Part shown: one piece after another, positions 8,706 to 57,138 of the stretch
How positions within the stretch are numbered: position 1 is the stretch's first letter
Layout: every line of letters starts with the position of its first letter
From: an uncultured Gammaproteobacteria bacterium
GTDB lineage: Bacteria > Pseudomonadota > Gammaproteobacteria > SZUA-140
Length of the DNA: 64,000 nucleotides
Direction: 5' to 3'
Assembly: GCA_947258425.1 (NCBI GenBank)
Contig: CAMYIG010000049.1
Span: 640-64,639 of the forward strand
Position numbers and translations under genes: made by a program
Notes under the pieces: generated by a model
Told to the model about the DNA's origin: nothing
The model's database searches: none
The model's input: the letters and a program-made list of their open reading frames with translations, nothing else

Positions 8706-10401
8706 TTACACCTCGGCGAGGTTGCCCTTACTCTCCAGCCAACCACGTCGATCAGCCGCGCGTTTCTTAGCCAGCAGCATGTCCATCATTTGATAGGTAT
8801 CGTCACCGCTATCGAGTACCAGCTGCACCAGGCGACGGGTGTCGGGGTCAATCGTGGTTTCGCGTAGTTGCAGCGGGTTCATCTCACCCAGCCCTTTAAA
8901 GCGCTGCACATTGATCTTACCTTTCAGTTTTTCAGCTTCAATGCGGCTCAACACACCGCGCTGTTCGTCATCATCGAGCGCATAAAAGACATGCTTGCCG
9001 ACATCAATACGATAGAGTGGTGGCATCGCGACATACACATGCCCCGCTTCGACCAATGGACGAAAGTGCCTTAAAAACAGGGCGCAAAGGAGTGTCGCAA
9101 TGTGAAGTCCATCGGAATCGGCATCGGCGAGGATACAGACTTTACCGTAACGCAGCCCTTTGAGGTCATCGGAGCCGGGCTCGACACCAATCGCGACCGA
9201 GACATCGTGCACTTCCTGTGAACCCAGTACTTCTTGCGAGTCGACCTCCCAGGTATTGAGGATCTTGCCGCGCAACGGCATGATCGCCTGAAAGCTACGA
9301 TCACGCGCCTGCTTGGCTGTGTTGGTTGAGCCACAGACTAAACGAATCTTTCACTACCCCGGAGACAAACGCGGCGCACTCACGCGACGACAGTCGCTCT
9401 TTGGTCTGACCACTAAACTGTGGGTCTTCAAGTTTCACCGACAGTACATAGGCGCAACGTTCCCACACATCGTCCGGTGCGATCTTCACCCCGCGTGGCA
9501 ACAGATTTCGATACTCGCAAAACTCACGGATCGCATCGGTCAAGCCAGTGCGCAGACCATTCACATGGGTACCGCCCTGCCCGGTGGGAATCAGGTTGAC
9601 GTAACTCTCTGTCACCAGCTCCCCCCCTTCTGGCAACCACACCACCGCCCAGTCGGCGGCTTCGCGTTCTGAGGCGATGCTGCCGATCAACAACTCATCC
9701 GGCAGTAATGTGTAGCCTTTTACTGCGTCATTCAGATAGTCACGCAGGCCATCTTCAAAATACCACTCTTCACGGGTATCGGACTTTTCATCATAAAAGG
9801 CCACATGCAGGCCGGGGCACAACACCGCCTTGGCGCGCAGTACATGACGCAAACGTGAGACCGACATCTTTGCTGAATCGAAATACTTGCCCTCAGGCCA
9901 GAAACGGATCGCGGTGCCGCTGTTCTTTTTACCCACCGTACCGATCGTCTTCAGGTTTTCGACCTTATCGCCATGCTCAAAGGCCATCGAATATTCGCTG
10001 CCATCCCGCTTGATCTTCACTTCCAGTCGTTTCGAAAGCGCATTCACCACCGAGACGCCGACGCCATGCAGACCGCCGGAAAACTGATAATTCTTATTAG
10101 AGAATTTGCCGCCCGCATGCAATTTGGTGAGGATCACTTCAACCCCGGGCACCTTCTCTACCGGGTGCTTATCAACCGGCATGCCGCGGCCGTCATCCTC
10201 GACCTCCAGTGAGCCGTCTTTATAGAGTGTCACCGAAATTGTTTTTGCATGCCCTGCGACCGCCTCATCGACACTGTTATCGATCACCTCCTGCGCCAGA
10301 TGGTTGGGGCGCGTGGTGTCGGTGTACATGCCAGGGCGTTTGCGTACCGGTTCCAGTCCGGTTAATACCTCAATCGATGAGGCATCGTAATCTCTACTCA
10401 T
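8706..10401 (-). pseudogene. parE: DNA topoisomerase IV subunit B, interrupted by an internal ~165-nt deletion plus frameshift near 9320
   Basis: The N-terminal ORF 9301..10401 matches ParE up to ...VVKDSFSLWLNQ. The C-terminal ORF 8706..9281, with its open frame extended upstream, reads ...AKQARDRSFQAIMPLRGKILNTWEV.... The ~55 residues that normally separate these segments, including the Toprim EGDSA motif, are absent, and the two halves lie in different frames. Confidence 0.85.
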
Positions 10402-10544: not shown

Positions 10545-10895
10545 ATGTCGGCCGCTGCTTTTTATAGTAGAATCCTGCCCAATCTAAGAACCCTGAGCCA
10601 TGGAAGCAGTACGGAGCCCATTTTGGTCAAAAAAAAACGCAGTAAAAAAGATCTCCCAGCCGATTTTGAAGGCGCCCTTGAGGCACTCGAAACGCTGGTG
10701 GAGCAGATGGAAGCGGGCGAAATTACGCTGGAAGAATCGCTGGAGCACTTTGAGCGCGGTATTCTGCTCACCCGCACCTGTCAGGAGGCGCTGAAAGCCG
10801 CCGAACAGAAAGTTGAAATTCTGATGAAAAACAGTCCTGATGCGAGTACACAGCCCTTTGCCAGTACTCATCCCACAGATAACGACCGTGACTAA
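10545..10895 (+). CDS. xseB: Exodeoxyribonuclease VII small subunit
   Basis: ...FEGALEALETLVEQMEAGEITLEESLEHFERGILLTRTCQEALKAAEQKVEIL is an XseB signature. The true start is probably internal (TTG/GTG near 10620), giving a protein of ~85-90 aa. Confidence 0.8.
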   Translation: MSAAAFYSRILPNLRTLSHGSSTEPILVKKKRSKKDLPADFEGALEALETLVEQMEAGEITLEESLEHFERGILLTRTCQEALKAAEQKVEILMKNSPDASTQPFASTHPTDNDRD

Positions 10896-15093: not shown

Positions 15094-17565
15094 ATGATGA
15101 GCTGGTTCAATCGAATAAACAGTTTTATTCGCACCCTCACTGGACGCATGGTGATGGGTGAACTACTTATTCACTCTATATTAGTACCCTTTCTCTTTTT
15201 TGGTATTAATTTCATCGTCAAAGATGGCTACCATTCAAGATTTATCGAACAAGCCCACTCAAAATCAAACCTGCTAGTGACCATCATTACCCATGAGGTG
15301 AGCAATCCACACATACTCGAACTGCTCAACAATGTGGTCAATAGTCATCAGATTATCTCAGCCAAACTCATTTACACCTCCGGCGAAGTAATTCAAAGTC
15401 AAACTAAAGTAGATGACCTAAACCAGCCTTTCATAGAAGATCAGTTCTTCGCTCAGCATAACGATAGTAAATTTCATATCGAGACGCCACTCATCAGCAG
15501 CGGTGGTGAACTCATCGCCACGCTACAAACCAGTTTTGATGAACGCCCCGTCGCCAATCAGATTGAAAAGACATACCAGGTCAGTTTATTACTTGCCTGC
15601 GCCTACATTCTGATTACGCTGGTGCTATCCGGTCTGCTCGGGCAGCAGCTCACACGCCCAATACGAAAATTACGTGACGATGCACGTATTATCGCCTCCG
15701 GCAACACAGATAAACAACTCAATGTCATCTCTTCGATCTCGGAGGTTGCTAGTCTCACTGACAATCTGGAAACGATGAAAAAGGCGCTCATCAAGCATAG
15801 TCAGGCGTCACTCTCTCGCGAGGCACATCTACGCGCAGTGATGGAAAATGTCGTGGATGGCATCATCATTACAAATACGACTGGCATCATTGAGTCACTC
15901 AACCCGGCTGCCATCAACCTCTTTGACTATACAAAAGGTGAGTTGATTGGAGAACATATCAATGTCCTGCTAGATGCCAACGCCCTGCTGAAAATAGCGA
16001 TGATTTCTAATCGATCACAAAATGCCGAAGTAGATCAACATAAACACAAACTTCAGGAGACGCAGGGCTACCGTAAAAGCGGGGCTATTTTTCCTTTAGA
16101 AGTGGCAATTAGTAAGATGATTGTCAACTATCAAACTCACTATATTTATGTCACACATGACATTACAGAAAGAAAGTATGCTAAAAATGAACTAGAACGT
16201 CGCGTCATCATTCGCACCAGCGAACTGGCCGCCGCCAATGAAGAATTAGAATACCAGGCGCTGCATGATTCACTGACCGACCTACCCAATCGCGTCTTAT
16301 TACTAGACCGGATTAATCAGGCCATTCAGACAAACGAACGCAATAATCATAAGCTGGCCCTTTTTATGATTGACCTTGATCGCTTCAAAGAGATCAATGA
16401 CACGCTGGGTCACCACTATGGTGACATCATTCTACAGCAGGTCGCCCAGCGCATGCGGGAAGTGCTGCATAAATCAAACACGGTTGCGCGCCTTGGCGGT
16501 GATGAGTTCGCGGTATTACTGCCCTTAATTGAAGATACTGAAATGCCGGCGGCAATCGCGATGGAGGTCATCAACGCTATAGACCAGCCCTACTTGCTGG
16601 AAGAACAGGCCTTTCATGTCGGCGCCAGTATCGGCATCGCCATCTCGCCTGAACACGGCGCCGATGCATCGACACTTATGCGTCATGCCGATATTGCGAT
16701 GTACGCCACTAAAAACAACAACAGTGACTATACGTTTTATCATGCGTCACTGGATCAACACAGCCGTGATCGTCTTGCGCTTACCACGGAACTACGCCAT
16801 GCGATCGATCATGATGAACTGCTGCTGCACTATCAACCAAAGGTCGACTTTAAAACGGGCAACGTTGCAGAAGTTGAGGCGCTTGTGCGCTGGAACCACC
16901 CCCGCTTCGGCACGATGAGCCCCGATCATTTTATTCCACTGTCCGAACATACAGGGCTCATCAGACCCCTCACCTTATGGGTCATCACTGAAGCGTTAAA
17001 GACCTGTCGAGAATGGCACGATAGCGGGCATAAACTCAAAATCGCCATCAATCTATCCACTCACAACCTGCATGATCCACACTTGCGCAGCCATATAGAG
17101 GAGAGTTGTAAAACGTATCAACTTGACCCGGCATACCTGGTACTTGAAATCACCGAAAGCGCCGTGATGTCTGACCCGATTAGTGCAATGAAAATTTTAA
17201 ATGAGTTATCAACAATGGGGATCAATCTGTCAATCGATGACTTTGGTACTGGCTATTCTTCACTCGCCTATCTAAAACAGCTTCCGATGGATGAGATCAA
17301 GATCGATAAATCCTTCGTCATTGATATGATTACGGATAACGATGATCTCACCATCGTACGTGCCACGATCGACCTTGCCCATAACATGGGCAGAAAAGTG
17401 ATCGCAGAAGGGGTTGAGTCGCTTCAAATATGGGAGATGCTCAACAAGATGGGCTGCGATATGGCGCAGGGCAACTATATTTGTGAACCACTCTCAGCGG
17501 ATGAATTCTATCAATGGCTACAGGATTCACCATTAAACCTGCCACTATTAAGCTCCCAGAATTAA
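15094..17565 (+). CDS. Membrane sensor with HAMP-PAS-GGDEF-EAL domains (c-di-GMP cyclase/phosphodiesterase)
   Basis: 823 aa with two TM helices flanking a periplasmic domain. Contains the GGDEF motif RLGGDEFAV and the EAL motif EALVRW. Confidence 0.85.
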   Translation: MMSWFNRINSFIRTLTGRMVMGELLIHSILVPFLFFGINFIVKDGYHSRFIEQAHSKSNLLVTIITHEVSNPHILELLNNVVNSHQIISAKLIYTSGEVIQSQTKVDDLNQPFIEDQFFAQHNDSKFHIETPLISSGGELIATLQTSFDERPVANQIEKTYQVSLLLACAYILITLVLSGLLGQQLTRPIRKLRDDARIIASGNTDKQLNVISSISEVASLTDNLETMKKALIKHSQASLSREAHLRAVMENVVDGIIITNTTGIIESLNPAAINLFDYTKGELIGEHINVLLDANALLKIAMISNRSQNAEVDQHKHKLQETQGYRKSGAIFPLEVAISKMIVNYQTHYIYVTHDITERKYAKNELERRVIIRTSELAAANEELEYQALHDSLTDLPNRVLLLDRINQAIQTNERNNHKLALFMIDLDRFKEINDTLGHHYGDIILQQVAQRMREVLHKSNTVARLGGDEFAVLLPLIEDTEMPAAIAMEVINAIDQPYLLEEQAFHVGASIGIAISPEHGADASTLMRHADIAMYATKNNNSDYTFYHASLDQHSRDRLALTTELRHAIDHDELLLHYQPKVDFKTGNVAEVEALVRWNHPRFGTMSPDHFIPLSEHTGLIRPLTLWVITEALKTCREWHDSGHKLKIAINLSTHNLHDPHLRSHIEESCKTYQLDPAYLVLEITESAVMSDPISAMKILNELSTMGINLSIDDFGTGYSSLAYLKQLPMDEIKIDKSFVIDMITDNDDLTIVRATIDLAHNMGRKVIAEGVESLQIWEMLNKMGCDMAQGNYICEPLSADEFYQWLQDSPLNLPLLSSQN

Positions 17566-52768: not shown

Positions 52769-55504
52769 TTGACCATAAAAAAATTAACTGCTAGCAGCAC
52801 ACACGCCTCAGCATCAGTCATTAAGCTACCTGGGGTATTCACCCTAATCCTATCTCTTTTAGTAGCGGGCTGTGGTAGTGCTGGTAATGACACGTCCGCT
52901 ACGGATAGTGATGCAGCAGCAAACACTTCGAGCAGCACTCAATCTACCGTTAACAACGTATCAGCAATCATCACGCCGATTGTTGGCTCTGCCAATGATG
53001 CTGAGGAAGAGGCCGCTACAGGTTCAATCGATGCCGCTAGTAGTGACCTCGAACTCATCTACGAACCCGGTGGCTCAGGAGAACAGCGCGTTGGTTTGCG
53101 CTTCAGTCTGGATATCCCTAAAAATAGCATTGTCACGCGGGCTTACATTCAATTCACCAGCGATGAAGTGTCAACTGGTGAAAGCAGTCTGACTATCCGT
53201 GCCGAATACAGTGCGAATGCGGCATCTTTTTCTACAAATAATTTCGATATTTCATCTCGCCCTGTCACCACTGCATCAGTCGACTGGACACCACCCGAGT
53301 GGAATACCACAGGGGAAAGTGGAATTGACCAGCGCACCCCTGATATCAGCACCCTCGCCCAGAAAGTAGTAGATCTCTCTGACTGGCAAGCCAATAATTA
53401 CATCGCATTTATCATTACTGGTACGGGTACTCGCACGTCGGTATCCCATGACGGTTCACCTGTGTTTGCACCAAAACTGTACATTGAATACGCAGTCAAT
53501 GAACCCGAACCTGAGCCTATTCCGCCATCACCAGAGCCTGTGACTCCACCGCCTGCACCCGTCGATCATTTCCCCATAGCAGAGAATGACACCCTGAGCA
53601 CTTCAGAAAACACGGCTGTCTCTTTCAACCTGCTCAGCAATGATCATGGTCTTGAAGATGGTGGCATTGTGATCACTCTAAGCAGTGCACCGGCCAATGG
53701 CAGCACATCCCTTGCTCAAAATGGCACGGTGACATACAGCCCCAATGGTGGCTATGCAGGCAGTGATCAGTTCACCTATCGCGTCACAGATGCCGATGGC
53801 GATTCAAGCAGTGCCATTGTTAATGTAACCATTGACGCGATTAATTATTTGCCCATCGCTCACGACGATAGTATCGAAATTAACGCGGGGTCATCAGTCA
53901 CGGTGAATGTCCTCACCAATGACACAGGACTCGAAGACGGCGGTATCACTGTCACACTCGACAACACACCAACTAACGGTAGCGTTCAGATTGACCAGAA
54001 CGGCACAATTACCTACACCCCCAACAGTGGCTATGTCGGCAGTGACTCCCTTACATACCGCATCACAGACAGTGATGGGGATAGCAGTAGCGCTAACTTC
54101 AATCTCATTATTCATCCACTTATCAGCCAACAACCCGCCAGTGATGATGCCGAAGAGACAATGTCAACCGGCAGAATGGATCTTGCAAGCAGCAATCTCG
54201 AACTTACACTACACACCAATGGCACGGGTGGCCAGCGTGTGGGGCTGCGTTTTAAACTAGACGTCCCCAGTAATAGCATTATTACCAATGCCTATATCCA
54301 GTTTACAACCAGCCAGACCTCGTCTGGAGTAAGCAACCTGTTTATCTTCGCTGAGAAAAGCACCAATGCAGCAGCTTTTGCAAGTAATGACCTGAATCTT
54401 TTTCGCCGTCCCGCCTCAGATATAACGATTAACTGGATGCCGCCTGACTGGAATACGATCGGTCAGAAGGAGATTAGCCAACGTACGCCAGATTTAAGTG
54501 CGCTCATTCAGGAAATCATTACATTAGACAACTGGCAGGCCAGCAACCATATCGCTTTTACCATATACGGCAGTGGCACTCGAATAGCGTACTCACTTGA
54601 CAGCTCACTATTAAATCTAGGCACCACTGAACTAGCGCCACAGCTTTATGTTGAATATGCCCCAGCTGATGCAACGTCACCGCTGCCAGCCCCCACTAAC
54701 ACGTTTCCAATCGCGCATCTGGATAGTCTCACGACGATAAAAAATACGCCGGTAAGCATCAACGTACTAAGTAATGATGAAGGACTCTCAGATGCACCCA
54801 TTAACGTCACCATCAGCACCCCCGCCCCAAATGGGCGTGTTGTTATTGGCCAAAATGGCAACCTCACCTACACACCAGATAGTGATTATTTAGGGACAGA
54901 TACCTTCACTTACACCATCACAGACGCCAATAGCGACGCCGATTCTGCAAGTGTCAACGTCTCAATTAATGACTCCAATCATTTACCCGTTGCCAATGCT
55001 GATAACGTCACAACGCAAACCAGCACACCGGTGACGATTGCTGTACTTGATAATGACACGGGTATAGAAGACAGCCCAATCACTATGGCCATTTCAACGC
55101 ACCCCATCAATGGAAGCGTGACCATTGAACCAGACAATACGATCACCTACACCTCGAATGCAGATTACTTCGGGCCTGATAGTTTCGGTTACACCATTAC
55201 AGACATAGACAACGACAGCGCCGCTGCCAACGTACAGATTACCGTCACATGCACCTCTGGGATTTGCTCAAAGACCATTAGAGCCACATGGGATGCGAAT
55301 GCAGAACCGAACATCAGTGGATACTACCTCCATCATGGTACACAATCAGGTACATACACAGATAAAATCTGGGTGGGTGATATGACATCATATGATTTTA
55401 TTACCTCCGAATTGACAGACCACTTCTTCGCAGTTTCAGCGGTGAATACGTCAAGCGATGAGTCCGATCTATCCGCCGAAGCATCGATATCACTAGCGCC
55501 ATGA
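52769..55504 (+). CDS. Lipoprotein paralog A2: two copies of the ~180-aa module, four cadherin/VCBS-like repeats, C-terminal FN3-like domain
   Basis: TTG start with the lipobox LLVAGCGS. Modules lie at about 52994-53525 and 54140-54680. The C-terminus reads CTSGICSKTIRATWDANAEP..., paralogous to A1. Confidence 0.75.
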   Translation: MTIKKLTASSTHASASVIKLPGVFTLILSLLVAGCGSAGNDTSATDSDAAANTSSSTQSTVNNVSAIITPIVGSANDAEEEAATGSIDAASSDLELIYEPGGSGEQRVGLRFSLDIPKNSIVTRAYIQFTSDEVSTGESSLTIRAEYSANAASFSTNNFDISSRPVTTASVDWTPPEWNTTGESGIDQRTPDISTLAQKVVDLSDWQANNYIAFIITGTGTRTSVSHDGSPVFAPKLYIEYAVNEPEPEPIPPSPEPVTPPPAPVDHFPIAENDTLSTSENTAVSFNLLSNDHGLEDGGIVITLSSAPANGSTSLAQNGTVTYSPNGGYAGSDQFTYRVTDADGDSSSAIVNVTIDAINYLPIAHDDSIEINAGSSVTVNVLTNDTGLEDGGITVTLDNTPTNGSVQIDQNGTITYTPNSGYVGSDSLTYRITDSDGDSSSANFNLIIHPLISQQPASDDAEETMSTGRMDLASSNLELTLHTNGTGGQRVGLRFKLDVPSNSIITNAYIQFTTSQTSSGVSNLFIFAEKSTNAAAFASNDLNLFRRPASDITINWMPPDWNTIGQKEISQRTPDLSALIQEIITLDNWQASNHIAFTIYGSGTRIAYSLDSSLLNLGTTELAPQLYVEYAPADATSPLPAPTNTFPIAHLDSLTTIKNTPVSINVLSNDEGLSDAPINVTISTPAPNGRVVIGQNGNLTYTPDSDYLGTDTFTYTITDANSDADSASVNVSINDSNHLPVANADNVTTQTSTPVTIAVLDNDTGIEDSPITMAISTHPINGSVTIEPDNTITYTSNADYFGPDSFGYTITDIDNDSAAANVQITVTCTSGICSKTIRATWDANAEPNISGYYLHHGTQSGTYTDKIWVGDMTSYDFITSELTDHFFAVSAVNTSSDESDLSAEASISLAP

Positions 55505-55545
55505 TCGGCCCATTTCATCAGAACAAAGGCTAAAGGATAGTTACC

Positions 55546-57138
55546 ATGAACGCTTCAGTAAAATTCAGACTACTATTGCCAGCCCTGTTAATTTTCTTAT
55601 TCTGGAATAACAGTGCCATCGCGGCTATTTACTATGTTGCAACAACAGGGAGCAATCTGTTTGGCGATGGCACGTCTAATGACCCGTGGAAAACGATTGG
55701 TTATGGCATCGATAAAATGAAGTCGGGGGATACATTAATAGTAAAAGCCGGCATCTATCGGGGAAAAGAGAACTTCATCAACTCTCGCCTTTCTACACTT
55801 CCCAGCGGTGGCCCGGGAAACTACACTACCATCAAAGCAGAATCGCCATTCACTGCCATTATTAGCAACAGTGCGCCGTTAAACTACTATGATAATCTAT
55901 TACTCATCGAAGTAGATTATATCCACATCGATGGCTTTGTATTTAACATGATCAATCAGAAAGAACCGGAATACAATGCTGAAGTATTGGGTAATTATAA
56001 TAAAATCACCCAAAGTCTTTTCCGTAGAGAAGGCGATGTCAATGAATTTGGTGGCTGGGTATCGATACTGGGGGATTATAATCTCGTCGAAGATAGCGCA
56101 GGCGTAGGCGCTGCCCGCTATGGTTTCTATACAGGCGGCCCTGGCTCATCCGCCAGCCAGAATATTTTTCGTCGCATCGTTGCACGCGTTGACTATTCAA
56201 ATTCACTACAACCAAAATCTGCCTTTGCTGTTTACGGCAACAATGATGGCACCAATGTACGGGATGTCTTATGCCAGAACTGTATCGCGATCGATGGAAA
56301 CCGCGGCCCTAGCGGCTCCGAAGAAACCTATGGCGGTTTTTATTTCCCTAAAAATGCCGCCAATGTAACGGTACAAGGTAGCATCGTACTCAACAATGAA
56401 GCCGCACATGCCGGCTATTTTGCCAAAGAATTACACGGCGAAAATATCCGCTTAGAACATTCCATTGCATGGGGCGTTTATGGCACCTCATATATCGCAG
56501 GTGTCCGTGCCAATGGTGCGGGCGGCCCCTATTTTGGCATCGATCACATGACCATCGGTGCCAACCCCGTCGCCTATTACAACAAGGACAGTTCAACGCA
56601 ACGCGTGATGACCAATACCCTTTTTTATAACAATGCCACCACCAGTACTTCAGATTACGGCTGGACACGCAATTCACATAACGCCTTTTTTCCTGCAACA
56701 CAGGCCACAGGAAGTAATGCTGTGACGACCAATATTAATCTGAAATATATCCTTCGCGCGGAGAGTAACAGCGCACTGGTGGGCGCTGCCAGCGATGGCG
56801 GCAACATCGGTGCCGACGTCACAAAGCAATATGGGGTATCAGGCACGTTATGGGGAGAAGCGGGCTACAATCAACGCACCAGCGCTAATCTATGGCCATG
56901 GAAACACGAAGATAAGATCAAGGAATGGTTTGCTCTTCCTAATGTGCCGCCAACGGGTAACATCCCCGCGATTAATAATACAGTCCGAGGCTTTACTGTC
57001 GCCAATGATCAATTTGGCAAACAGATGACATTAACCCGTTACATCTGGCAGTACCTGGGTAACGAAATCCCCGCCGGCATCTATAGCTCCACATCAGTGG
57101 CAGCCCCTACAGGGCACGCTGTTGCACTGGTGCCATAG
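55546..57138 (+). CDS. Secreted right-handed parallel beta-helix protein B2 (paralog of B1)
   Basis: Signal peptide, then AIYYVATTGSNLFGDGTSNDPWKTIGYGIDKMKSGDTLIVKAGIY. 530 aa, about 75% identical to B1. Confidence 0.75.
   Translation: MNASVKFRLLLPALLIFLFWNNSAIAAIYYVATTGSNLFGDGTSNDPWKTIGYGIDKMKSGDTLIVKAGIYRGKENFINSRLSTLPSGGPGNYTTIKAESPFTAIISNSAPLNYYDNLLLIEVDYIHIDGFVFNMINQKEPEYNAEVLGNYNKITQSLFRREGDVNEFGGWVSILGDYNLVEDSAGVGAARYGFYTGGPGSSASQNIFRRIVARVDYSNSLQPKSAFAVYGNNDGTNVRDVLCQNCIAIDGNRGPSGSEETYGGFYFPKNAANVTVQGSIVLNNEAAHAGYFAKELHGENIRLEHSIAWGVYGTSYIAGVRANGAGGPYFGIDHMTIGANPVAYYNKDSSTQRVMTNTLFYNNATTSTSDYGWTRNSHNAFFPATQATGSNAVTTNINLKYILRAESNSALVGAASDGGNIGADVTKQYGVSGTLWGEAGYNQRTSANLWPWKHEDKIKEWFALPNVPPTGNIPAINNTVRGFTVANDQFGKQMTLTRYIWQYLGNEIPAGIYSSTSVAAPTGHAVALVP

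What the first reader, a model, noticed from the sequence alone, without database searches (positions are those of the whole stretch)
8706..10401. parE (topoisomerase IV B) carries an internal deletion that removes the Toprim EGDSA region
The N-terminal ORF ends ...GVVKDSFSLWLNQHSQAGA*. In a different frame, the same nucleotides continue as ...LVCGSTNTAKQARDRSFQAIMPLRGKILNTWEV.

In E. coli ParE about 55 residues separate LWLNQ from AKQARDR (the linker plus the start of Toprim, with the catalytic Glu of EGDSA). About 165 nt are therefore missing near 9320, and the frame is shifted.

parC next door is intact at 751 aa. Topo IV B is normally essential in gammaproteobacteria. This is either a striking loss (gyrase compensating, or a second parE copy elsewhere) or an assembly or engineered lesion.

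Together with the DUF808 and A1 lesions it shows that the sequence contains several coding disruptions.
Basis: partly seen in the sequence, partly recalled or inferred. Interest (0 to 1): 0.75.

Follow-up and report, generated by a model that had tools for sequence, protein, structure and literature searches.

The report
Truncated topoisomerase IV B gene (parE)
The gene for the B subunit of topoisomerase IV has lost exactly 191 bases, including its catalytic glutamate, in one very recent event, so it is either a brand-new null mutation or a sequencing or assembly defect, not an evolved loss of the enzyme.

Summary
parE lies on the minus strand (10401 to 8706).

- **Size and position.** Four intact 1887-nt orthologues were aligned; the closest is 92.5% identical in DNA and 99.1% in protein. 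Against all four, the window lacks exactly 191 nt. The junction is between window bases 9318 and 9317, with 0-1 nt of microhomology.
- **What is lost.** Residues 362-425 are gone: the end of the transducer domain, the linker and the first Toprim strand, including E418 of EGDSA. The reading frame also shifts.
- **What is left.** The N-terminal ORF gives 361 native residues plus SQAGA and a stop. Residues 426-628 follow in another frame.
- **Relatives.** All full-length clade members read here (mostly 628 aa) keep the segment.
- **Age.** The remnants show no decay. The window's own branch has 29 synonymous and 2 conservative non-synonymous changes, and omega is about 0.036, as between intact relatives. 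The lesion therefore falls in roughly the last 3% of that branch, or it never existed in the cell.
- **Neighbour.** parC is intact.

Without reads I cannot separate an artefact or unrepresentative molecule (about 0.5) from a genuine, just-arisen null allele (about 0.3). A long-standing loss of topo IV and a naturally short ParE are both rejected. Interest is modest.

The parts
9319..10401 (-). parE codons 1-361 (GHKL ATPase domain plus most of the transducer domain, including the GQTKE loop), in the native frame
   Evidence: Pfam HATPase_c and DNA_gyraseB. TIGR01055 model positions 3-363. 99.4% aa identity to residues 1-361 of the intact P0134.
9317..9318 (-). Deletion junction: 191 nt present in all relatives are missing between these two bases
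   Evidence: DNA alignments with L081, L082, L083 and L084; coordinates. Relatives read ...CA(C/T)A|CCGATGC...GG(C/T)TCT|GCCAAACAGG, so the junction has 0-1 nt of microhomology.
9301..9318 (-). Out-of-frame tail of the N-terminal ORF (SQAGA) and its TGA stop. The same bases encode native A426-R431 in the other frame.
8706..9317 (-). parE codons 426-628 plus stop (rest of Toprim with DADSDG, and the GyrB_C tail), shifted by one base relative to the N-terminal part. The first ATG in this frame is at 9281 (M438).
   Evidence: Pfam Toprim positions 13-94 of 96 and DNA_gyraseB_C. TIGR01055 positions 425-623. 98.5% aa identity to P0134 residues 426-628.
4514..6769 (-). parC (topoisomerase IV subunit A), intact at 751 aa
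   Evidence: TIGR01062 parC_Gneg, 1119 bits against a cut-off of 629. Same length as the L084 orthologue, 96.8% aa and 90.1% nt identity.

Best explanation
The sequence as written carries a null allele of parE, made by a single 191-nt deletion.

Translation from the normal start gives the ATPase and transducer part (361 native residues), five wrong residues and a stop. The remainder (A426-V628) is in another frame with no start codon before M438. It lacks the first Toprim strand and the catalytic Glu of EGDSA, so no active topoisomerase IV B subunit can be made. That much is shown directly.

My preferred reading (inferred) is that this is not the working state of the organism's gene. In this reading parE is a fully constrained, functional gene in this lineage. 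The 191-nt gap then comes from how the sequence was obtained: a chimeric or defective template molecule, an amplification chimera, contigs abutted without a gap, or a minority allele taken as consensus. The living population would carry the full 1887-nt gene like all its relatives.
For: (1) All full-length members of the closest ParE clusters (15 read, mostly 628 aa) keep residues 362-425, which are almost invariant.

(2) The remnants show no sign of life as a pseudogene. Omega between the window and relatives is 0.035-0.037, the same as between two intact relatives at 0.037. Branch-specific changes are 100 synonymous to 10 non-synonymous against L082 and L081, and 29 to 2 (F203Y, I519V) against the closest relative. 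From this, at most about 3% of the window's own branch, dS up to about 0.002, can have been neutral. There is no second stop or frameshift in 1.7 kb.

(3) parC next door is intact and conserved.

(4) Topo IV is essential in E. coli and other studied gammaproteobacteria (established knowledge), so a null allele is not expected to be the majority state of a haploid population.

(5) The junction has 0-1 nt of microhomology. This fits blunt abutment of two sequence ends at least as well as replication slippage.

(6) The junction sequence, even with degenerate third positions, occurs in no JGI metagenome contig.
Against: The rest of the window looks accurately assembled. About 50 other genes are full length with complete Pfam coverage, and there are no Ns.

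The single-base frameshifts sit only in accessory genes (DUF808, twice), as expected of real, selection-filtered pseudogenes rather than random errors.

No repeat flanks the gap that would mislead an assembler.

The window's lineage has other deletions with equally little homology: 56 nt in an intergenic region and 70 nt in adhesin A1. So such deletions may arise naturally here.

No reads are available, so an artefact is not demonstrated.
Confidence: 0.5

Rival explanations
1. This is a genuine, just-arisen null mutation carried by the sequenced organism. A spontaneous homology-independent deletion removed 191 bp of parE. The cells persist for one of three reasons: intact copies complement it (several chromosome copies per cell, or a second parE elsewhere); gyrase or topo III takes over decatenation; or the clone is a short-lived dead end caught by sequencing.
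For: The assembly is otherwise clean. The window lineage shows a run of deletions with little or no microhomology (3, 5, 7, 56 and 191 nt) over 8.9 kb, where the sister lineage L084 shows none. Adhesin A1 also has a 70-nt out-of-frame deletion. Together these suggest a real deletion-prone background. Some bacteria live with gyrase as their only type II topoisomerase (PMC3510509).
Against: There is no relaxation of selection on parE or parC. Topo IV is retained and strongly constrained in every relative. Essentiality in model gammaproteobacteria is established knowledge. No compensating gene is visible in the window, and the missing segment is not elsewhere in it.
Confidence: 0.3
2. The lesion was introduced deliberately or in the laboratory, by mutagenesis, an engineered strain or an edited sequence.
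For: The break is clean, has no homology and is out of frame, in an otherwise perfectly conserved essential gene. A second clean out-of-frame deletion lies in the same 64 kb.
Against: Engineered deletions are usually in frame, larger, and leave scars or markers; none is present. The DUF808 lesions look like an ordinary natural pseudogene. The relatives are uncultured vent or marine metagenome bacteria, which are unlikely laboratory strains.
Confidence: 0.1
3. This is an established, lineage-level loss of topoisomerase IV, with parE as an old pseudogene and gyrase taking over, as in bacteria that lack topo IV.
For: Only the disrupted ORF itself supports this. Bacteria without topo IV do exist (PMC3510509).
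Against: The window branch has 29 synonymous and 2 non-synonymous changes, where about 94 non-synonymous changes would be expected under neutrality. There are no further lesions. parC is intact at 96.8% aa identity. The sister species at 92.5% nt identity has an intact gene.
Confidence: 0.05
4. This is a naturally shorter or two-piece ParE that is still functional, either as a family variant lacking the segment or through a programmed frameshift that joins the two parts.
For: Both parts are individually open and well conserved.
Against: The missing segment holds the catalytic Glu of EGDSA and the first Toprim strand. No relative lacks it. A +1 shift at the junction would still give a protein without E418. 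Neither fragment reaches the TIGR01055 cut-off.
Confidence: 0.03

Closest known systems
ParE (DNA topoisomerase IV subunit B) of Gram-negative bacteria, e.g. E. coli ParE (630 aa; structures 1S16 for residues 1-390, 5EIX/2XKK for the Toprim-ParC core)
   Same: About 70% aa identity to E. coli ParE with identical numbering of EGDSA (418) and DADSDG (490) in the intact sister orthologue. It is the best NCBIfam match, the parE_Gneg equivalog. It lies next to parC.
   Different: Residues 362-425 are absent and the two halves are in different frames. The deleted stretch bridges the end of the crystallised 43-kDa ATPase fragment (1-390) and the start of the cleavage-core constructs (from about 389).
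Recent bacterial pseudogenes: single-lesion inactivated genes, annotated as 'frameshifted/internal deletion' by genome pipelines
   Same: It is orthologous and syntenic to functional genes, and its ORF is broken by a single event.
   Different: It shows no measurable relaxation of selection and affects a gene that is normally essential. Typical pseudogenes are accessory genes, such as the DUF808 gene in this same window.
Bacteria that naturally lack topoisomerase IV (e.g. mycobacteria), where gyrase decatenates
   Same: As written, the sequence encodes no functional topo IV B subunit.
   Different: In those lineages parC and parE are absent altogether and gyrase is adapted as a strong decatenase (PMC3510509). 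Here parC is intact, the parE remnants are under full constraint, and every relative keeps both genes.

Membership tests
Functional ParE / type IIA topoisomerase B subunit (TIGR01055 parE_Gneg) | GHKL ATPase domain and transducer domain with the QTK loop | tested here: met
   Pfam HATPase_c and DNA_gyraseB in ORF 9304-10401. GQTKE is retained. TIGR01055 positions 3-363 are matched.
Functional ParE / type IIA topoisomerase B subunit (TIGR01055 parE_Gneg) | Complete Toprim domain with the catalytic Glu of the EGDSA motif | tested here: not met
   Residues 362-425, including E418-G-D-S-A, are missing. Pfam Toprim is matched only from profile position 13.
Functional ParE / type IIA topoisomerase B subunit (TIGR01055 parE_Gneg) | Toprim DxDxD metal-binding motif and the GyrB_C tail | tested here: met
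   DADSDG and PF00986 are present in the 8709-9317 frame, but they are not joined to the N-terminal part.
Functional ParE / type IIA topoisomerase B subunit (TIGR01055 parE_Gneg) | One continuous reading frame that scores above the equivalog cut-off (723 bits) | tested here: not met
   The N fragment scores 587.6 bits and the C fragment 319.4 bits, in different frames. The intact relative P0134 scores 1025.7 bits.
Pseudogene / inactivated orthologue | Orthologous, syntenic position and a disrupted ORF relative to intact relatives | tested here: met
   The gene order (GGDEF-EAL, folE2, queD, dxs, ispA, xseB, parE, DUF481, parC) is the same as in L082 and L084. There is a single 191-nt gap.
Pseudogene / inactivated orthologue | Relaxed selection or additional lesions, showing it has been non-functional for some time | tested here: not met
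   Omega is about 0.036, as in intact pairs. The window branch has 29 synonymous and 2 non-synonymous changes. At most about 3% of the branch can have been neutral.
Pseudogene / inactivated orthologue | No intact copy elsewhere in the genome | not testable with these tools
   Only this 64-kb window is available. There is no second parE- or gyrB-like sequence and no copy of the missing segment within it.
Assembly or sequencing artefact | Reads or independent assemblies of the same strain that contradict the junction | not testable with these tools
   The source genome is not in the collections: exact look-ups of four window proteins failed. The flank pattern finds only the sister-species contig.
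Assembly or sequencing artefact | Repeat, N-run or contig boundary at the junction | tested here: not met
   There are no Ns in the window. Relatives share no repeat between the two breakpoints.
Naturally short or split ParE variant | The same architecture in related genomes | tested here: not met
   All full-length members of the three closest clusters, and 16 more distant ParE sequences, keep the segment without gaps.

The most novel reading that the evidence does not exclude
A gammaproteobacterium from a vent-associated, uncultured clade has just lost topoisomerase IV B and nevertheless persists. It might do so because many chromosome copies per cell let a null allele ride along with intact ones, or because gyrase or topo III can cover decatenation. 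That would catch the very first step of topo IV loss in a lineage where the enzyme is otherwise tightly conserved.
Probability: 0.15. Interest if true: 0.6.

Novelty: new member of a known kind. Interest (0 to 1): 0.3.

Why it matters
If the lesion is real and representative, it would show that a gammaproteobacterium can survive, at least briefly, without topo IV B. It would also give a natural starting point for asking how decatenation is covered.

If it is an artefact or a minority allele, which I think somewhat more likely, it matters only as a quality flag. The record should then not be used to infer that this organism lacks topo IV.

Either way, the evolutionary analysis settles one point: this is not an established gene loss.

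Tried and rejected
- **Source genome.** Exact-protein look-ups of ParE-N, ParC, GlyA and RibH found nothing on record.
- **Deletion allele in metagenomes.** A degenerate junction pattern gave 0 hits. A 29-nt left-flank pattern found only the sister-species contig, which was already in hand.
- **Missing segment moved elsewhere in the window.** blastn and tblastn found only chance matches of 10-14 nt.
- **Hairpin or inverted repeat at the breakpoints.** Folding the intact L084 segment as DNA gave an unremarkable structure (z = -2.1) whose stems do not coincide with the breakpoints. I judged this inconclusive and dropped it.
- **Microhomology-mediated slippage.** Relatives show 0-1 nt of shared sequence at the two breakpoints. 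The apparent 'HSQAG' versus 'HTDAG' similarity is coincidental out-of-frame sequence.
- **Literature on the relatives.** Searches for their accession numbers (JAKISP..., Ga0316209...) returned nothing, so the taxon stays 'uncultured Gammaproteobacteria / Thiotrichaceae / Chromatiales, hydrothermal-vent metagenomes'.
- **Programmed frameshift or bypass.** Rejected, because the catalytic residues are absent from the DNA itself.

Full report
**Observation.** parE lies on the minus strand from 10401 to 8706. The ORF 9301..10401 encodes 366 aa and ends ...SFSLWLNQHSQAGA*. A second frame, open from 9350, continues ...AKQARDRSFQAIMPLRGKILNTWEV... to the normal C-terminus at 8706. Pfam finds HATPase_c and DNA_gyraseB in the first piece. 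In the second it finds a Toprim domain that starts only at profile position 13, plus DNA_gyraseB_C. NCBIfam's Gram-negative parE equivalog (TIGR01055) is matched at model positions 3-363 and 425-623 by the two pieces. Neither passes the cut-off alone.

**Sizing the lesion.**
- A genome scan gave ParE loci of up to 79% aa identity, and all of those I translated are full length.
- A protein search found three closer clusters at about 90% identity. Their contigs (L081, L082, L083) are syntenic with the window: GGDEF-EAL, folE2, queD, dxs, ispA, xseB | parE | DUF481 | parC.
- Listing the cluster members revealed P0134, which differs from the window at only 5 of 564 comparable residues. Its contig is L084, from JGI metagenome 3300032255, and is 92.5% identical in parE DNA.
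- Against all four orthologues (each 1887 nt) the window (1696 nt) has a single gap of exactly 191 nt. It covers gene positions 1085-1275, that is codon 362 position 2 to the end of codon 425.
- In window coordinates the junction lies between 9318 and 9317.
- The lost peptide is [64 protein letters not shown]. It includes E418 of EGDSA, numbered as in E. coli ParE. DADSDG (490) is retained.
- Solved structures place the deletion across the end of the 43-kDa ATPase fragment (1S16, residues 1-390) and the start of the cleavage-core constructs (from about 389; 5EIX, 2XKK).
- The breakpoints in relatives read ...CA(C/T)A|CCGATGC... and ...GG(C/T)TCT|GCCAAACAGG..., so they share 0-1 nt of microhomology.
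Otherwise the description is right.

**Consequence (shown from sequence plus established enzymology).** No polypeptide with both the ATPase gate and a complete Toprim can be made. The Toprim glutamate acts with the DxDxD acidic cluster in metal-dependent DNA cleavage in type IIA topoisomerases. The allele is therefore null for topo IV. A +1 shift at the junction would not rescue it.

**Age of the lesion.**
- Nei-Gojobori omega between the window and relatives is 0.035-0.037, identical to that between two intact relatives at 0.037.
- Changes assigned to the window's branch are 100 synonymous to 10 conservative non-synonymous with L082 and L081 as references. This is no different from the intact branches.
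- With L084 as sister and the others as outgroups, the window branch has 29 synonymous and 2 non-synonymous changes (F203Y, I519V).
- If the gene had drifted neutrally along that branch, about 94 non-synonymous changes would be expected. The data allow at most about 3% of the branch, dS up to about 0.002, to have been neutral.
- There is no second frameshift or stop in 1.7 kb.
- parC is intact at 751 aa, passes the parC_Gneg equivalog, and is 96.8% aa / 90.1% nt identical to L084.
- The lesion is therefore evolutionarily instantaneous. An established loss of topo IV is excluded, and so is a naturally short ParE, because all full-length clade members keep the segment.

**Real or artefact?**

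*Evidence pointing to an artefact or an unrepresentative molecule:*
- The gene is essential in studied gammaproteobacteria (established knowledge) and fully constrained here.
- The junction has no homology, as expected if two sequence ends were simply abutted.
- The junction is absent from JGI metagenome contigs.

*Evidence pointing to a real mutation:*
- The window is otherwise cleanly assembled. About 50 other genes are full length and there are no Ns.
- The single-base frameshifts are confined to an accessory gene (DUF808), as natural pseudogenes are.
- No repeat flanks the gap that could mislead an assembler.
- The window's lineage shows five deletions (3, 5, 7, 56 and 191 nt) in 8.9 kb where the sister lineage shows none.
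- Adhesin A1 has a 70-nt out-of-frame deletion with 1 nt of microhomology.

The source genome is not in any searchable collection, so reads or other assemblies of the strain could not be consulted. My weights are:

| Explanation | Weight |
|---|---|
| Artefact or unrepresentative allele | about 0.5 |
| Genuine, just-arisen null allele (tolerated through complementing copies or compensation, or a dead end) | about 0.3 |
| Laboratory or deliberate lesion | about 0.1 |
| Old loss, or functional short form | under 0.1 together |

**Comparison with what is known.** The gene is an orthologue of Gram-negative ParE that fails the defining tests for a functional member: no catalytic Glu and no continuous ORF. 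It resembles an ordinary single-lesion pseudogene, except that it hits a normally essential gene and shows no decay. Bacteria that truly lack topo IV, such as mycobacteria, have neither parC nor parE and rely on a decatenation-proficient gyrase (PMC3510509). That is not the picture here.

**Verdict.** Biological significance is uncertain and probably low. It is worth a read-level check, but as it stands it is not evidence that this organism lives without topo IV.

Noticed in passing
window 2207-3162 (minus strand): The DUF808 gene is broken into three ORFs covering Pfam model positions 1-115, 124-195 and 209-300. It appears to have two single-base frameshifts, one of them an extra C in GTAAAG-C-ATCGATGAT that is not in a homopolymer. 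It looks like an ordinary accessory-gene pseudogene.
   Followed up: partly
window 47514-50734, junction at 48330|48331: Cadherin/Big_9 adhesin 'A1' is split into 302-aa and 767-aa ORFs. Compared with its own paralogous repeat unit at 49049, 70 nt are missing (…GAAGACG|GACTTACACC…), out of frame, with about 1 nt of microhomology. This is a second clean out-of-frame deletion in the same window.
   Followed up: partly
window 47514-52370 and 52769-57138: There are two tandem paralogous modules, each a large cadherin-like adhesin followed by a gene of about 530-540 aa with no Pfam family or only a weak Chondroitinase_B hit. The downstream proteins are 71.5% identical and the adhesins about 50%.
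   Followed up: partly
window about 15076 (intergenic, upstream of the GGDEF-EAL gene 15094-17565): A window-specific 56-nt deletion relative to L084 and L082, with little microhomology. Over 8.9 kb the window lineage has five deletions (3, 5, 7, 56 and 191 nt) and L084 has none, which suggests a deletion bias or a shared artefact source.
   Followed up: partly
window 7657-8705: About 1 kb, including an OmpA-like beta-barrel gene (7940-8554), lies between parE and DUF481. It is absent in the sister contig L084. L082 has a second DUF481 gene at this position, so this spot between the two topo IV genes is variable.
   Followed up: no
window 2207-4406: The DUF808 pseudogene and an HHH/DUF3892 gene (3402-4406) sit between parC and the MORN-repeat/peptidase C13 gene (227-2059). 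Those two genes are adjacent in L082. In L084, parC is followed by yhbY-ftsJ-ftsH instead.
   Followed up: no
window 46556-47513: A 958-nt AT-rich stretch upstream of adhesin A1 has no ORF over 73 aa and no Rfam match.
   Followed up: no
window 10840-10880 (xseB 3' end / ispA start): An 18-nt tandem-repeat copy-number difference relative to L084 (TGAGTACTGGCAAGAGAC-like units). It is in frame and is an ordinary slippage polymorphism.
   Followed up: no
whole window: GC skew is negative in every 2-kb bin (C exceeds G on the + strand), so the window lies entirely within one replichore. The only RNA gene is tRNA-Leu(CAA) at 32205-32289.
   Followed up: no
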